The notes under the pieces: generated by a model | Told to the model about the DNA's origin: nothing | The model's input: only the letters and a program-made list of their open reading frames with translations | Databases searched by the model: none | Translations under genes and position numbers: made by a program | Part shown: piece after piece, positions 52,284 through 57,982 of the stretch | Numbering within the stretch: the first letter of the stretch is position 1 | Layout: every line of letters begins with the position of its first letter | DNA from: Trypanosoma brucei | Taxonomy: Eukaryota | Reading direction: 5' to 3' | Assembly (NCBI GenBank): GCA_000002445.1 | Contig: CH464491.1 | Coordinates: 3,552,001-3,616,000, forward strand | Length of the DNA stretch: 64,000 bases

Positions 52284-55200
52284 AAACCACTCCACGAACT
52301 AATGACAGGGGAAGGAATCGTGAGGTAAGCCCATTTAGGGGCCTACCGATGTAGGGCAGTGTAGTTAATAGAATGCTATTACTTTTCCCCCAGACTTTTG
52401 AAAACGCTTACGGTGACGGCGTGTGATTTGTTTTAAACCAGTTTTCGCTAATAATTTTGTCACTGCGCCGCTCAGGGATGTGAGATTGTATACTGTGTGG
52501 CGTACCCCTTCGGCAGTGGCAATAAGCGTTCGACCTTCACCCGTGACCGCAGACTGTCGCGCCGGTGGAATATGTGATTTTTTGTTTTTCTTCCTTCCTT
52601 TCTTTCTTTTTTTTTTTCCTGAGCGTACGCGATTTACTCCATACGGCGGCAACTTTTTCCTTATTTATATGCATATATATATAAATCGTACCCTAAAGTT
52701 GTGCACGTGCTATTTGCATATATTTGTTTTTTTGTCATTGGTCTTCCAGCGGTGAATACGCGTTTACACCTTTAACGTGCAAAGATTGCATGCCTAACTC
52801 TGTGTCAAACGTGTTATCGCAGGGAACACTCCTTCTTGGTACCAAACACTTTCGTGTGTTGGGGCGTATCGCCGCGTACCTTCCATGCACCGCTCATATC
52901 TCGGGGCATTGTTATTTTTTAAAGACATCGATCGTATGACTTTAGTGAGTGTTATGACTTTCGTTTTTCTCGAGCTTCCGTGTTTACCTCCTGCCGTTGT
53001 CGTTATTTTTGACATTTGTTTCACTAATTCTCCTATTATTATGTTACATGGGTTAGCCCAGCTGCGAGAGCCACCGCGCCCTCGCTACAATTTCTTCTCC
53101 CGCTTCTCGGCTGCCCATCCACCAAGCAAAACCTATCGAGCAATATGAAGTGGGTGTGTACCATGCTAAGTTTGTTGTTCGGTTTCGCGGCGCTGCAGCC
53201 CCTAGTTTCTCTGATCCTCTTTAAGTTTCAGCAGGCCTTCTCCCTTCACTCCTTAGGCACCTGTATTATAGTTTGTCGCACGGCAACGGCAGTTGTGTAT
53301 ACGCTGCCGTCGTAATCGGTGCACGTTATCACTGGGTGTGGTGTATCCGGCCAATCTTGCATGTTAGGGTGCATTATCCCGTATTAGTTCCCATGGTGTT
53401 TAGTAAGTGAAGCAACGCAAGCACCATTGTTTCAGCCGAGCTGCTGGGGACGATTATGTCTTGGCCCTTGTGGAACACTTATGTTTTAAACGTTTTTAAT
53501 ACGAGGCAACGTAAGTATTCGTACCCCAAGAGAAACCTCGTTGCCCACCAGTCAGTTTTTTCCTCGGCGAAGTAGTGAACGCATCCCCCATCCTGTCGAC
53601 AATGCTTGTGGAGAGGCCCACTCATAATTGTGTGATGACGCGCAGTGCCTTCGTATTGATGTCTTCACTGGTGCGGGCGGGGCCGATTCTCAAGGTCCGA
53701 GGGTCACTAAGCTATTCAGCACGTATTGTGGGCTCTTTTTTCTCCCCACTGAGCTGCGTGAAACGCCTGCAACCCCGCACGGCTATAATATCAACCCCAT
53801 GACGTAGAGCAGCCTGCGGGAGGAGTCTTTTCGCGTTTTTGCGTATGGCAGTTGAGCCACCCGTGACGAAGCTGTGTCTGACCCAGGAAATGCGATTTAG
53901 CCTTCGGTCGAGGGAGTTCACTGTGGTTATGAACGGTACTGATCCAAAAACTGACCTCCGCGTTGCCCCGCAGGTCATGGAAATAGTTTCTAGCCATGTG
54001 TTGCTAACTGTATAAGGAGTGTTCCACCAAACCAGTTAGGTGGGGTTATATTTTGCATTGACTTAGTGCCACGATGATTTACACATGATCCGCCGATTCG
54101 GACGTTCTTGTATAGTTTGCATGCCTCCGCTTCTTTTTGTTTCTTCACCATATTTCACCAAACAGCTGTGTCACAGCATTTGCTGTTGAGTGTTTGGAGC
54201 CCTGACTGTTCTGGCTCAAGTAAGTTGTCGAGTTGATGCTTCAGGTTCCTTACAATCATCCTTTCCATTAGCTTGCAGAGGGCACTCATAGGGTCAGTGG
54301 CCGGGACGATGCGCCTTTGTTGCGTGTTCGTTTGGCTGAAGGGTTGGTATTATAACGTCCCTTCTCCTCTGTTCTAGCATTTTGCACGCTTCATACGGTG
54401 CTTAAGCATCCCTAGTAAGCATTCTCTCCTGGAACCACGGCCACTGTACATAAATTGGCCTGGTGCTAACTTCGGTTCTCCCAGGGTAAACCGTTTGGGT
54501 TCACAATTCCTCATGCTTGGTTGTTTCGTCCTTGAAGCTTCTGCCGTCATTGTCAACCCCTTCCTGCACATTTCCAGAATCACGTCCTCTTAACTTTGTC
54601 AATGGGTGTGCATTAACAACTGCTACTGTACTGGTCGATGGCCTCGTTGCAAGCACCGCATTCACTAGGTCGCAGCTTTCGGGTTCTGTGATCCCTGCTC
54701 CCAGTGTTGTTTTCCTTCATTTGACGGTCGTTTCTGTAACCACACCTCTAATTTTGTGTATCTTCGCTAGCTTTCCCCCTTTCCCTCTCTTTTAACATTC
54801 CTTTTCCCTATCTTCTGGGAGCCTGCGGAAGGAATGGTCAAGCCTTTACGCACTGTCAGGTAAGATAAAATAACCATTATAATCCTTGTTTTCGTATCAC
54901 ACCTAAGATAAGTATCGCAAAGAGTGAGTTTTTAAAACGCCCACCCAACCCAACTGTCACCGCCTCCGCACCAGAGCCGGGTAAGGTCATTTCCAGCACT
55001 TTCCTTATCGTCGGTAAATTTACTTCCATATATTTGAGGACTCGCATTTACCAACAATACCCTTTCCCCAACGATGCAAACGATGGATATGATAGCCACG
55101 ACAAAGGTTGAAATTATTAAGTTTCCCGCTCTTTTTCTTCCATTTAACGCAGAAAGACAGGGTAAAGATAATTCAGATTTGTTAGTTCCTACGTCCGGAA

Positions 55201-55299
55201 ATGTGGCACACGCATGTTGCCTTTAGTTACCTTTTCTCGTTCGGTTCCATTTTCGCTAAAAAAAAATAATACGGGTTTACTCACCTCATCCACTTCTCT

Positions 55300-57200
55300 C
55301 GGAGAACATTTCGGCATTTTCTTTTGCTCCCACGCGTAGGTTTACCGTTAAAATGTTGTCACTTTTATCCCACGCGACTAATGCCGTGCGGTGGCCACAG
55401 TAATTAACTTTGGCATTCGCGTCGATGCCTGTTTCGGTTGTGATTCAATTGCGATCGGTGATTGAATTCAGTTTTGAGATTCAGCCTCTTACCCAACGTT
55501 CTCTGGTCGTGGCCACTCCTGGCGGTGGGGCCCGTTTGCGCTCGATTTTTTGTTGTTTCCAGTTGCGGTAAGTGTGTAGGGGCAAATGTAAATTTGCATC
55601 CCTTGGTTGTGCATTAGTTTAGCCGATATCCCCTTATGCTCTCCTCTTCGTGGGTCGTTTGTTACGCCCGTATTGTCCCTGATCCTGTATCGGCGCCCGT
55701 AAGCGCTTGAAAGAGTGCGCTTTTCCGATGTTCCGGAATCTAGATGTCATTTTGCGGTCTGCTTATTCACTGTGCTGGTGTGGTTTCCCTAGAATGTGGA
55801 ATACCCCCTCCACAAAAGAGAGGGGGTATTCCAACGCGATTCTTTCGGCTGCAAGAACTATTCTCGTCTAAATCGGCGTCGCGATGTGCACGTAGCCTAA
55901 TTTGCGTTATTTCAACGGAGCTGTGCGACCTCAGGGGCGGTTTCGGCCACAGGAGCCAATGCGGACACACCCTTTTCAGCCGAGGGGGCGCAAGGTCGTT
56001 GCCGCCTCCCCTTTCCGTAGTAACTGATAACCGTCCGCCCACCCCATTGGAAAGGACTTGGACGCATGGAGATGCTCAGCTTTGTTCGTGACGATGCACT
56101 GAGCCCTCATGCCGCTTTGGGGGTGGATTCCCCCGTCATGAGCTGGCGGGTGCGGGCTGAATTGGGTATTAGTCCAGTGGTGCGCGCCCCTCTTGGGGTG
56201 ATGCGGACATCTGCTTCTCGTTTGGTGAGGGCGCTGCAGCTGTCATTTGTTTGAAACGCTGGGAGGCAACCAGGGCCCGCGGGGTTGTCAACTGAGGCGG
56301 CGCCGCCTTTGGTCGCGACGTGGTCACATGCGCGCACCCAGTGGTTACTGGACACCGCCCGACTTTGGTGTGCACTTCCGCTATGGACAGGGCAGGTTGG
56401 TCATACGTGTGTTTCCGGGATGGGCGGACGAGAGTGACTGTTTTCCGGCATCTACCTTGAAGGCAAAGGCTCCACGATATTTTGGAAAACGGTACGCGGG
56501 GGACATCTTTCGTGGCCATTGGGGAGGTGGTTCGCCACTTCTTTAATGCCTCTGGTGGCCAGGTTGGGGTCCACATCAGGTTTTGTGAGAACGTACTTGA
56601 TCAGGCGGTATCACCCCCTTTTTCCGCCACTGCTTGCGTATCTTCGGTGATGGAGCAGCACCCCGGCGTCTGCGGCCACGGGCCTTTTTGCAGGGATCTT
56701 CGCACATGTGACAGCAAATGCACTCTCAGTGAAATACGCGGAGGGTTGGGTATGTTTCTTGAATGTTCTGTGCGACCTACTGTCAAGTTTGAATCGTTTA
56801 CAGTTCTAGTTTGTTCACTAGATGTGTCAGTTAGCACGACTTCCCTCCTTTTTGTGCCCATTAAAATTATTCATTAGAAACCACCACTTGTTGCTCTGTT
56901 TTAGTCCGGCACCGCTCGTTGACGCATTGGTTGACCTGCTTTCTTGGTCGCTTGCCCGGGTACCATCGCCCTGGCAGCAGACAAGCCACCCCCTCGAAGT
57001 GTCGTTGTATGATTTAGCACTTACTTATTGCGACTGTTCGAACATTGCTTTTCTTTTCAGAAGGTCCGCATCGGCTGCACGGCAGTGCTTTAGCTATTTT
57101 GAGTCAGTGCATGTGTGGTTTCCACCACCTCGGTGTACGTGCAGAGGGATGGCACTCGGTGATGGGGGTCGCGGGTGAATAAAAGACGCATTTAGCTGAT
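55300..57200 (+). other. G/T-rich, relatively GC-rich island inside a 5.7 kb ORF-poor gap. Candidate internal transcription start region, degenerate element or ncRNA locus.
   Basis: Only overlapping 60-135 codon ORFs on both strands, in successive frames, with non-protein-like composition. Plus strand is G/T-skewed (gggtggattcccccgtcatgagctggcgggtgcgggctgaattgggt...). Shares short motifs with the SSR plus arm: TGTAGGGG, and an 8-mer CGCGGGGG (ACGCGGGGG except for the final base). Confidence 0.3.
55796..55832. repeat. Perfect 14-bp inverted repeat (tggaataccccctc / gagggggtattcca) with 9-nt spacer
   Basis: Read directly: tggaataccccctc-cacaaaaga-gagggggtattcca. Can form a 14-bp hairpin/cruciform. 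Confidence 0.8.
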
Positions 57201-57982
57201 AGTTTCAAAGAAAACGTTCGAACCATATATACATTTTTTGTGGGTCAAACACAAATTTAAGTTTTGCGTTACTATATTTTCGGACAGTAATCAGTATGCC
57301 AACTATTGTCCCCTCGGAGGAAGGATGCAAGTACTTTTTGTTACCATTTCACTCTGTACCTTGCGTGCAATATTTAGATGCGCTTTCCATTTTTTTTTTT
57401 AGAAATTCTTGCTCCCACAATGCGCCGATAACACGGTGTTGCCCTTTGGTCTGAGGGGAAGACGGAAGGGTATAGAAAGGCCCTCTCATGAGGGAATTTA
57501 TGGGGAATTATGTACAGTGCGGCGTAGCATCGTGGTTCCATGTATTGCGTTTATGACATACGAGAAGGGACCTACCATGTATGTGTTTAGGAACGAGGTT
57601 ATGTGGGAGAATGTACACATTTTGGGGGCAACTTGATTTTTTTTTTTTACCTTCCCCCCTGTGCCTGCACCTCATTTTTGTGTACGTCGAGCGTATTAAG
57701 TTGTTTTCATATACATTCTCTAAGTTTCTGTTCCGCATTGTTTCTATTTACATTCTGGACGACACGGTTTATCGGCCAAGGCGTTGCATAAAATTTGATG
57801 ACCGCAGTGCCGGCGCCCCAAAACCCTTTTCCGCATTAAGGATTTTTCTTACCAAAGAATGTTCCGCGGCGAGAGCACAATCTGAAGCAGTTAGTTATTA
57901 CTTTTTTCTTACCAACATTTCATTCGTTTTATTAACTTTTTCACTGTTTCCACCCATTTAGAGTTCTCGGAGTAGTTCAACC

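What the first reader, a model, noticed from the sequence alone, without database searches (positions are those of the whole stretch)
52284..57982. Unusually long (5.7 kb) ORF-poor gap inside the plus-strand cluster
The stretch between the adenylate cyclase stop (52283) and the Rab4 ATG (57983) holds no ORF over 135 codons. That is several-fold longer than the other intergenic distances in the window, which run 0.3-1.3 kb. Kinetoplastid clusters are normally densely packed. Long gaps often hold snoRNA clusters, retroposon relics (DIRE/SIDER/RIME fragments), pseudogenes, or internal (head-to-tail) transcription start sites.
Basis: seen in the sequence. Interest (0 to 1): 0.55.

Follow-up and report, generated by a model that had tools for sequence, protein, structure and literature searches.

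The report
Long transcribed non-coding spacer before Rab4
The 5.7-kb stretch between the ACP5 adenylate cyclase and Rab4 genes on Trypanosoma brucei chromosome 11 is real but ordinary non-coding DNA inside a gene cluster: at least its last 1.8 kb is made into a stable RNA, and it lies where related trypanosomes have the start of the gene cluster.

Summary
Window 52284-57982 has no stop-free run over 143 codons, which is what shuffled sequence gives. It has no coding-like codon usage and no Pfam, Rfam, tRNA, snoRNA-like or repeat signal. The locus is T. brucei chromosome 11: ODC, ACP5 (Tb927.11.13740), the gap, Rab4 (Tb927.11.13750).

The gap is transcribed non-coding sequence of the plus-strand cluster. 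Polypyrimidine tracts are 14:2 in favour of the plus strand. A public RNA contig joins the spliced-leader end to position 57962, so the Rab4 5'UTR is only 21 nt. Five RNA contigs from the same run series cover 56004-57833. Three of them end 128-148 nt upstream of the Rab4 splice acceptor, where a coupled poly(A) site is expected.

The sequence signature of T. brucei transcription start regions is strong at the strand switch 10-15 kb upstream and absent from the gap. In T. vivax, T. theileri, T. rangeli and probably T. conorhini, Rab4 is the first gene after a divergent strand switch, so the gap sits on an ancestral cluster boundary.

I could not tell whether the RNA is the end of a very long ACP5 3'UTR or a separate lncRNA. 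The verdict is ordinary, low interest.

The parts
48639..52283 (+). ACP5 receptor adenylate cyclase CDS (Tb927.11.13740), the left border of the gap
   Evidence: Pfam finds Peripla_BP_A-cyclase and Guanylate_cyc domains. The CDS is 3645 nt, matching the ACP5 row in a supplement of PMC5568443. The ACP5 identifier comes from PMC9481589.
52284..57982 (+). The 5.7-kb non-coding gap
   Evidence: No ORF beyond chance, no coding codon usage, no Pfam hit in six frames, and nothing in Rfam, tRNA or repeat scans.
52578..52623 (+). Strongest polypyrimidine tract of the gap (43 nt), followed by AG at 52622-52623. Candidate internal trans-splice acceptor about 340 nt after the ACP5 stop.
   Evidence: Polypyrimidine scan, score 39. 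Its use as an acceptor is inferred, not shown.
54771..54821 (+). Second strong polypyrimidine tract, followed by AG at 54820-54821. Candidate internal trans-splice acceptor.
   Evidence: Polypyrimidine scan, score 30. Inferred.
55797..55833 (.). Perfect 14-bp inverted repeat with a 9-nt loop
   Evidence: It is the only perfect hairpin of 11 bp or more in the 64-kb window, and none of 14 bp appeared in 20 shuffles. The 71-nt stretch around it (55780-55850) folds with z = -3.4. T. b. gambiense and L002 carry an uncompensated mismatch in the stem, so function is doubtful.
55800..56400 (.). GC-rich island (GC 0.58-0.61) inside the gap
   Evidence: Similar islands sit at the true strand switch (42.0-42.8 kb) and just upstream of Rab4 in T. 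rangeli and T. theileri. Reading it as a relic of the old strand-switch region is an inference.
56004..57833 (+). Stretch covered by five public RNA-seq contigs, giving a stable non-coding RNA of at least 1.8 kb
   Evidence: Contigs L009-L013 come from runs ERR7929156, 157, 162, 163 and 164 and map to 56004-57813, 56209-57833, 56087-57655, 56299-57830 and 56004-57365. They are 99.6% identical to the L001 and L002 alleles. The plus-strand assignment is inferred from the position of the 3' ends.
57813..57840 (+). Probable poly(A) site region of the upstream RNA
   Evidence: Three of the five contigs end at 57813, 57830 and 57833, which is 128-148 nt upstream of the Rab4 acceptor. The Rab4/hyp contig L003 ends 122 nt upstream of the next candidate acceptor AG (59848), the same pattern. 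No A-tail is present in the contigs.
57960..57982 (+). Rab4 trans-splice acceptor AG (57960-57961) and the 21-nt 5'UTR (57962-57982)
   Evidence: RNA contig L003 begins TATTG, the 3' end of the spliced leader (leader sequence from my own knowledge). This is joined to AGTTCTCGG... at 57962.
57983..58579 (+). Rab4 (Tb927.11.13750), the right border of the gap
   Evidence: Pfam Ras family. The identifier comes from PMC6071061. The protein is identical in T. b. gambiense chromosome 11.
40750..46800 (.). The real divergent strand-switch and transcription start region of this cluster, used as a positive control
   Evidence: 8-mers from the GT-rich promoter of Wedel et al. peak on the minus strand at 40.75-42.25 kb and on the plus strand at 42.25-43.75 kb. 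A G15 run lies at 42910 and a G12 run at 46764.

Best explanation
The gap is ordinary, genuinely non-coding sequence inside a T. brucei polycistronic transcription unit.

How it is made: RNA polymerase II starts at the divergent strand-switch region at about 40.7-46.8 kb. It reads through ODC and ACP5, across the gap and into Rab4.

How it is processed: in trypanosomes each poly(A) site is set by the next downstream trans-splice site (established knowledge). The 5.7 kb must therefore end up as the ACP5 3'UTR, as one or more spliced and polyadenylated non-coding RNAs, or as both.

What is shown:
- The Rab4 mRNA starts only 21 nt before its ATG.
- A stable RNA covers at least 56004-57833.
- That RNA ends about 130 nt before the Rab4 acceptor.

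What is inferred:
- The RNA is on the plus strand.
- The strong polypyrimidine/AG sites at 52622 and 54820 split the gap into the ACP5 3'UTR plus separate lncRNA(s).

Origin (inferred from synteny): the gap lies on the ancestral divergent strand-switch region upstream of Rab4. In the T. brucei lineage this boundary became internal, with ODC and ACP5 now between the present strand switch and Rab4. The GC-rich island at 55.8-56.4 kb may be a leftover of the old boundary.
For: Non-coding:
- The longest stop-free run equals the shuffle expectation.
- Codon-usage scores lie below or at the 5th percentile of real genes.
- Six-frame Pfam scans are empty.
- The 143-aa piece, searched against 1.84 billion representatives, hits only the T. 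b. gambiense 'hypothetical protein, unlikely' from the same locus and a chance repeat match.
- The 138-aa piece hits only an ORF called on RNA contigs of this same locus.

Part of the plus-strand unit:
- There are 14 polypyrimidine tracts on the plus strand against 2 on the minus strand.
- Negative AT skew runs through the whole gap.

Transcribed and processed:
- L003 carries the spliced-leader end joined at 57962.
- Five contigs from the same run series cover 56004-57833, and three end 128-148 nt before the Rab4 acceptor.

Not a start region:
- The GT-rich 8-mer and G-run signature is strong at 40.75-46.8 kb.
- It is at background level in the gap, 3-14 hits per 500 nt against a cluster mean of 6.1 +/- 4.2. 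The gap has no G-run of 6 or more and no (GT)4.

Ancestral boundary:
- Rab4 is the first plus-strand gene after a divergent switch in T. vivax, T. theileri and T. rangeli. T. conorhini looks the same, but there the only minus-strand call is a retroelement-like fragment at the contig end.
- None of the window's upstream genes has an orthologue upstream of Rab4 in T. vivax or T. theileri. In T. rangeli only an adenylate cyclase homologue is found there, on the opposite strand.

Background:
- T. brucei has 1428 mostly intergenic, trans-spliced and polyadenylated lncRNAs (PMC9200285).
Against: - No RNA evidence was obtained for 52.3-56.0 kb. Seventeen guessed ORF products from that part are absent from the protein collection. 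That is only a weak negative.
- No spliced-leader junction or A-tail was seen on the 56.0-57.8 kb contigs, so their strand and ends are inferred.
- That the ERR79291xx runs are RNA-seq is itself inferred. It rests on the 5-nt leader remnant on L003, only 2 nt of which discriminate it from the genome, and on contig ends that fall at expected processing sites.
- Chromatin marks were not available, so a weak internal start region cannot be excluded.
- RIME and SIDER consensus sequences could not be compared.
Confidence: 0.72

Rival explanations
1. The whole gap is one very long (about 5.5 kb) ACP5 3'UTR. The 56.0-57.8 kb contigs are then its 3' end, and it carries stage-regulatory elements for this procyclic-enriched gene.
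For: Poly(A) site choice is coupled to the next used splice site, and the only proven acceptor is the Rab4 one at 57960-57961. The contigs are anchored at one 3' end and ragged at the 5' side, as with 3'-biased coverage of a long RNA. ACP5 is developmentally regulated and about 2-fold enriched with RBP10, which is typical of mRNAs with long 3'UTRs.
Against: Two very strong polypyrimidine/AG signals lie inside the gap at 52578-52623 and 54771-54821. The gap has only one UAUUUUUU motif on the plus strand. Two contigs from different samples start at the same base, 56004. No ORF products from 52.7-55.6 kb were found in the contig-derived collection.
Confidence: 0.3
2. The right part of the gap still works as an internal (non-divergent) Pol II transcription start region for the Rab4 cluster, retained from the ancestral strand-switch region.
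For: Rab4 heads its cluster in three other trypanosome species, and probably in T. conorhini. A GC-rich island at 55.8-56.4 kb resembles the islands at strand switches. T. brucei has 57 non-divergent start regions (PMC5579346).
Against: There is no enrichment of GT-rich or G-run words in the gap, while the control region 10-15 kb upstream is strongly positive. There is no tRNA gene or strand switch. Polypyrimidine tracts and skew are plus-biased through the whole gap. A processed RNA runs through the island region up to the Rab4 acceptor.
Confidence: 0.12
3. The gap holds a decayed gene or a decayed retroposon (ingi/RIME/DIRE/SIDER) too eroded to recognise.
For: In T. conorhini an L1Tc-like element, with a DVEQNPGP 2A motif followed by QWNAGG, sits directly upstream of Rab4. 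The assemblies of T. grayi and T. theileri break just upstream of Rab4. The position therefore attracts insertions.
Against: There is no Pfam domain in any frame and no 2A or APE motif or similarity to the T. conorhini element. No window protein matches, there are no repeats, and codon usage is not gene-like.
Confidence: 0.07
4. The gap hides small structured RNA genes (snoRNAs or others) that are not in Rfam.
For: A unique perfect 14-bp hairpin lies at 55797-55833.
Against: The best Rfam match has E = 0.87. There are no C/D-box candidates, with 0.09 expected by chance, and no tandem cluster. Folding z-scores across the gap average -0.01 with sd 1.0. The hairpin has an uncompensated mismatch in two other T. 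brucei-group genomes.
Confidence: 0.04

Closest known systems
Intergenic trans-spliced, polyadenylated lncRNAs of T. brucei (1428 described by Guegan et al. 2022, PMC9200285; 'grumpy' is the studied example)
   Same: It is intergenic within a polycistronic unit, longer than 200 nt, has no coding potential, has ordinary polypyrimidine/AG signals upstream, and its 3' end lies at the distance from the next acceptor expected for coupled polyadenylation.
   Different: Neither a spliced-leader junction nor an A-tail was seen for the 56.0-57.8 kb RNA. I could not check whether it is already in their catalogue or in TriTrypDB. No function is known.
Long regulatory 3'UTRs of developmentally regulated T. 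brucei mRNAs (for example RBP10 targets, PMC5568443)
   Same: It lies directly downstream of a procyclic-enriched, RBP10-associated gene (ACP5) and is T-rich on the sense strand.
   Different: It has only one UA(U)6 motif. Strong internal splice-type signals are present. Continuity of the RNA with the ACP5 CDS is not shown.
Non-divergent Pol II transcription start regions of T. brucei (Siegel 2009; Wedel 2017, PMC5579346)
   Same: It is a long gene-free stretch inside a same-strand run of genes. The homologous position is a cluster start in other trypanosomes.
   Different: It lacks the G-run and GT-rich word signature that the neighbouring divergent start region shows. It has no flanking tRNA gene. 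A processed RNA runs through it.
Divergent strand-switch region upstream of Rab4 in T. vivax, T. theileri and T. rangeli, and probably T. conorhini
   Same: The right-hand neighbours are the same (Rab4, hypothetical protein, CDC50, profilin). The region upstream of Rab4 is gene-free: 2.7 kb in T. rangeli, and 3.6-6.9 kb in T. vivax depending on which ORFs count as genes. T. rangeli and T. theileri also have a GC-rich island.
   Different: In T. brucei the upstream genes (ACP5, ODC) are on the same strand as Rab4. There is no detectable DNA similarity between the gap and those regions.

Membership tests
T. brucei Pol II transcription start region (TSR) | Enrichment of H2A.Z/H2B.V nucleosomes and H4K10ac | not testable with these tools
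   No ChIP-seq data were reachable. Supplements of four chromatin papers held no entry for this locus.
T. brucei Pol II transcription start region (TSR) | G-runs and GT-rich words enriched on the coding strand (Wedel 2017, Dataset EV1 and the GT_416 promoter) | tested here: not met
   8-mers shared with GT_416 give 3-14 hits per 500 nt in the gap, against a cluster mean of 6.1 +/- 4.2. The control strand-switch region gives 13-23 on the plus strand and 15-22 on the minus strand. The gap has no G-run of 6 or more and no (GT)4, whereas G15 lies at 42910 and G12 at 46764.
T. brucei Pol II transcription start region (TSR) | Position at a cluster boundary (a strand switch, or head-to-tail after a termination region, often with tRNA genes) | tested here: not met
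   Genes on both sides are on the plus strand and the window has no tRNA gene. The feature is met at the homologous position in T. vivax, T. theileri and T. rangeli, and apparently in T. conorhini.
snoRNA cluster | Match to known snoRNA families, or C and D boxes with a terminal stem | tested here: not met
   The best Rfam match has E = 0.87. There are no C/D candidates, with 0.09 expected by chance.
snoRNA cluster | Tandemly reiterated cluster organisation | tested here: not met
   The only tandem repeat is a (TTTC)8 tract, and there are no internal repeats.
ingi/DIRE-type retroposon relic | Remnant of reverse-transcriptase or AP-endonuclease coding sequence, or the 2A motif | tested here: not met
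   Six-frame Pfam scans at E <= 1 are empty. There is no NPGP or QWNxxG motif and no tblastn match to the T. conorhini element.
RIME/SIDER non-autonomous retroposon relic | Similarity to the RIME or SIDER consensus, and multiple copies in the genome | not testable with these tools
Within the 64-kb window there is no second copy.
Pseudogene | Frame-interrupted similarity to a known protein | tested here: not met
   tblastn of all window proteins gives nothing better than E = 0.02. Pfam is empty. The two longest pieces have no homologues beyond this locus. The concatenated search is discounted because it missed known same-locus proteins.
T. brucei intergenic lncRNA (Guegan 2022 criteria) | Transcript longer than 200 nt with low coding potential | tested here: met
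   RNA contigs of 1.37-1.81 kb cover 56004-57833. Codon scores of the pieces in that stretch are at or below 0.062.
T. brucei intergenic lncRNA (Guegan 2022 criteria) | Spliced leader at the 5' end and a poly(A) tail at the 3' end | tested here: inconclusive
   The 3' ends cluster 128-148 nt before the Rab4 acceptor, as for a coupled poly(A) site. The contigs carry no A-tail and no leader sequence.
Single long ACP5 3'UTR | Continuous RNA from the ACP5 stop codon to one poly(A) site, with no used internal acceptor | tested here: inconclusive
   No contigs were found for 52.3-56.0 kb. Strong candidate acceptors lie at 52622 and 54820, but their use is unknown.

The most novel reading that the evidence does not exclude
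The 56.0-57.8 kb RNA, and perhaps further RNAs from 52.6-56.0 kb, could be a T. brucei-group-specific lncRNA born from a former strand-switch region. It could have a regulatory role for its neighbours ACP5, ODC or Rab4. Alternatively, the relic could keep weak promoter activity that partly uncouples the Rab4 cluster from the upstream start region.
Probability: 0.1. Interest if true: 0.4.

Novelty: already known. Interest (0 to 1): 0.15.

Why it matters
It matters little for new biology. Long non-coding stretches that serve as 3'UTRs or lncRNAs are a well-described part of T. brucei polycistronic units.

Two points are of modest use:
- Annotators should not call the small ORFs in the GC-rich island. 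T. b. gambiense lists three of them as 'hypothetical protein, unlikely'.
- The locus records how a cluster boundary can become internal. In T. vivax, T. theileri and T. rangeli, and probably in T. conorhini, Rab4 heads its cluster. In T. brucei, ODC and the adenylate cyclase ACP5 lie between the strand switch and Rab4. This bears on how these two lineage-relevant genes were placed in the genome.

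Tried and rejected
- Concatenated search: I joined the 23 longest stop-free pieces into one query against 5.8 billion proteins. It found nothing, but it also missed the T. b. gambiense proteins that are in the collection. I discount it as a sensitivity failure.
- Purifying selection on the left 3 kb: that part shows 7.0 substitutions per kb against 16.2 per kb at fourfold sites. I rejected this as evidence of constraint. Fourfold-site divergence is 0/311 in the first half of ACP5 and 10/309 in the second, so there is no stable neutral benchmark. The solid point is that 56-58 kb is about 2.5 times more divergent than the rest of the locus.
- Telomerase RNA template: no match beyond chance.
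- RBP10 motif enrichment: one plus-strand copy only.
- Exact look-ups of 17 ORF products from 52.7-56.0 kb, meant to find RNA contigs there: none found. Look-ups of the 115-aa and 135-aa ORFs also found none.
- T. congolense locus: its protein is not on record, so no DNA was available.
- Supplements of seven papers, searched for lncRNA, start-region or UTR coordinates of this locus: nothing usable.
- DNA similarity of the gap to the regions upstream of Rab4 in T. vivax, T. theileri and T. rangeli: none.
- Orthology of the T. rangeli adenylate cyclase with ACP5: not resolvable, because the family expands within lineages.

Full report
**Identity of the locus.** The Rab4 protein of the window is identical to that of T. 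brucei gambiense DAL972 chromosome 11 (FN554974.1) and of a second T. brucei-group assembly. The ACP5 protein is identical to that of T. equiperdum OVI. The plus-strand genes are:
- an ORF of 214 aa at 42196-42840;
- ornithine decarboxylase at 44283-45620;
- a receptor adenylate cyclase at 48639-52283;
- Rab4 at 57983-58579;
- a conserved hypothetical protein, then CDC50, then profilin.

Papers give Rab4 = Tb927.11.13750 (PMC6071061) and ACP5 = Tb927.11.13740 (PMC9481589). The ACP5 CDS length of 3645 nt agrees with a supplement row of PMC5568443. Tb927.11.13730 and Tb11.01.5300 turn up in polyamine papers, which fits my recollection that this is the ODC identifier, but I did not read a passage stating it. 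The genes switch strand between 40040 and 42196.

**The observation.** It is correct.
- The longest start-to-stop ORF between 52284 and 57982 is 135 aa.
- The longest stop-free run is 143 codons, against 142 +/- 28 in shuffles.
- Codon-usage log-odds trained on 15 genes of the window separate real coding chunks (0.16 +/- 0.07) from every long stop-free piece of the gap (-0.10 to +0.06).
- With small genes counted, intergenic distances in the minus-strand cluster are about 0.2-1.3 kb.
- The plus-strand cluster begins with three long gene-free stretches: 4.2 kb (strand switch to ODC), 3.0 kb (ODC to ACP5) and 5.7 kb (the gap).
- The gap is therefore the largest, but it belongs to an 18-kb gene-poor zone.

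**What is not there.**
- RNA genes: Rfam at E <= 1 gives one chance-level match. There are no tRNA genes. A box-and-stem scan finds no C/D snoRNA candidates, with 0.09 expected by chance. There is no telomerase-template-like sequence.
- RNA structure: folding z-scores of 120-nt windows average -0.01 with sd 1.0.
- Repeats: there are no tandem or dispersed repeats, apart from a (TTTC)8 tract, and no similarity to the rest of the window.
- Protein relics: no window protein has a relic copy in the gap. Six-frame Pfam scans with stops masked are empty at E <= 1. The 143-aa piece finds only the T. b. gambiense 'hypothetical protein, unlikely' of the same locus and a chance match to a repeat protein among 1.84 billion representatives.
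- Discounted search: a concatenated-query search is set aside because it missed those same-locus proteins.
- RIME and SIDER consensus sequences could not be tested.

**What is there: signals.** Polypyrimidine tracts, the core of trypanosome trans-splice signals, number 14 on the plus strand and 2 on the minus strand. AT skew is negative throughout. The whole gap therefore looks like sense-strand intergenic or UTR sequence of the plus-strand unit. The two strongest tracts are 52578-52620 (AG at 52622) and 54771-54816 (AG at 54820).

**What is there: RNA.**
- A public assembly contig from run ERR7929161 (L003) begins with TATTG. This is the last five bases of the spliced leader (leader sequence from my own knowledge). 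It is fused to window position 57962, directly after the AG at 57960-57961. The Rab4 5'UTR is therefore 21 nt, and the gap is not Rab4 leader.
- A single-ORF search found an ORF product (P0015) called on five contigs from the same run series: ERR7929156, 157, 162, 163 and 164.
- These contigs map to 56004-57813, 56209-57833, 56087-57655, 56299-57830 and 56004-57365.
- Three of them end within 20 nt of each other, 128-148 nt upstream of the Rab4 acceptor.
- L003 ends 122 nt upstream of the next candidate acceptor AG, at 59848.
- This is the spacing expected when polyadenylation is coupled to downstream trans-splicing (established knowledge). I read the contigs as RNA and their right ends as a poly(A) site near 57.83 kb.
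- No leader junction or A-tail is present on them, so strand and 5' end are inferred.
- I found no contigs for 52.3-56.0 kb, which is a weak negative.

- Control: 8-mers of that promoter peak on the minus strand at 40.75-42.25 kb and on the plus strand at 42.25-43.75 kb. A G15 run lies at 42910 and a G12 run at 46764. The test therefore recognises the real start region.
- The gap stays at background level and has no G-run or (GT)4.

**Comparative context.**
- In T. vivax, T. theileri and T. rangeli, the run Rab4, hypothetical protein, CDC50, profilin is conserved. Rab4 is the first gene after a divergent strand switch. T. conorhini has the same gene run, but the only minus-strand call upstream is a retroelement-like fragment at the contig end.
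- The window's upstream genes have no orthologues upstream of Rab4 in T. vivax or T. theileri. In T. rangeli only an adenylate cyclase homologue is found there.
- That T. rangeli gene lies on the opposite strand. Its apparent split coincides with an N-run in the assembly.
- In T. conorhini an L1Tc-like element with a 2A motif abuts Rab4.
- The gap thus lies on an old cluster boundary and synteny break. In the T. brucei lineage that boundary became internal, with ODC and ACP5 on its upstream side.
- GC-rich islands mark the present T. brucei strand switch and the T. rangeli and T. theileri switches. A similar island lies at 55.8-56.4 kb in the gap. Calling it a relic is an inference.

**Divergence.** Among three T. 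brucei-group genomes, most of the locus differs at 2-6 sites per 500 nt, whether coding or not. The stretch 56.0-58.0 kb differs at 7-11 per 500 nt. I first read the lower value in the left 3 kb as constraint. I withdrew that reading because fourfold sites range from 0/311 to 10/309 within ACP5. The right end, which is the transcribed part, shows no sign of constraint.

**Verdict.** This is an ordinary non-coding, transcribed stretch of a polycistronic unit. It is either a long ACP5 3'UTR, or a shorter UTR plus one or more lncRNAs. I favour the second reading, given the strong internal splice-type signals and the shared contig start at 56004, but this is not shown. An internal start site, a snoRNA cluster, a retroposon relic and a pseudogene are all unsupported. 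Novelty and interest are low.

Noticed in passing
window 55797-55833: A perfect 14-bp inverted repeat (TGGAATACCCCCTC / GAGGGGGTATTCCA) with a 9-nt loop. It is the only perfect hairpin of 11 bp or more in the 64 kb. T. b. gambiense and L002 have an uncompensated A-to-T change in the left arm.
   Followed up: yes
window 42196-42840 (+): A 214-aa ORF, annotated as a gene in T. equiperdum (L007 3562-4206). It lies in the GC-rich island of the strand-switch region, has no Pfam hit and has non-coding codon usage (score -0.06). It is probably not a gene. The ORF at 23284-23826 (-) also scores low (-0.03).
   Followed up: partly
window 40750-46800: The start-region signature (GT-rich words, G15 at 42910, G12 at 46764, (GT)4 at 45898 and 46753) extends across ODC. 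ODC therefore seems to sit inside the broad transcription start region.
   Followed up: partly
window 40041-57982; L004, L005, L008, L014: ODC and ACP5 are absent upstream of Rab4 in T. vivax, T. theileri, T. rangeli and T. conorhini. T. brucei has an 18-kb gene-poor zone with only these two genes between the strand switch and Rab4.
   Followed up: partly
L008 1795-5689 (-): T. rangeli has a receptor adenylate cyclase directly across the strand switch from Rab4, on the opposite strand. It is 48% and 36% identical to ACP5 in its two parts. Its split into two ORFs coincides with an N-run at 3726-3750. Orthology with ACP5 is unresolved.
   Followed up: partly
L014 1-593 (-): The T. conorhini contig ends in an ORF carrying a 2A-like motif (DVEQNPGP) followed by QWNAGG, as at the start of L1Tc/ingi-type retrotransposons. 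It lies 335 bp upstream of Rab4.
   Followed up: partly
L006 start; L005 8594-8793: The assemblies break just upstream of Rab4 in two more species. The T. grayi contig ends 224 bp before Rab4, and T. theileri has a 200-N gap there.
   Followed up: no
window 48639-52283: Divergence among T. brucei-group genomes is very uneven within ACP5. Fourfold sites change at 0 of 311 in the first half and 10 of 309 in the second. This suggests mosaic ancestry or gene conversion in this family.
   Followed up: partly
L004 2782-5037 (-): A 751-aa ATG-started ORF in T. vivax upstream of Rab4 is not among the called genes and has no Pfam hit. It could be real or spurious.
   Followed up: no
L001 7755-8102, 8180-8587, 9595-9903: T. 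b. gambiense annotates three 'hypothetical protein, unlikely' genes inside the gap. They correspond to window ORFs in the stretch from the GC-rich island (about 55.7 kb) to just before the Rab4 ATG. Each forms a single-member cluster among 15 billion proteins.
   Followed up: yes
tool behaviour: A 2374-aa concatenated query to the search for homologous proteins returned nothing. A single 138-aa piece of it did find a 96%-identical protein, and near-identical same-locus proteins are in the collection. Long artificial queries are unreliable with that tool.
   Followed up: yes
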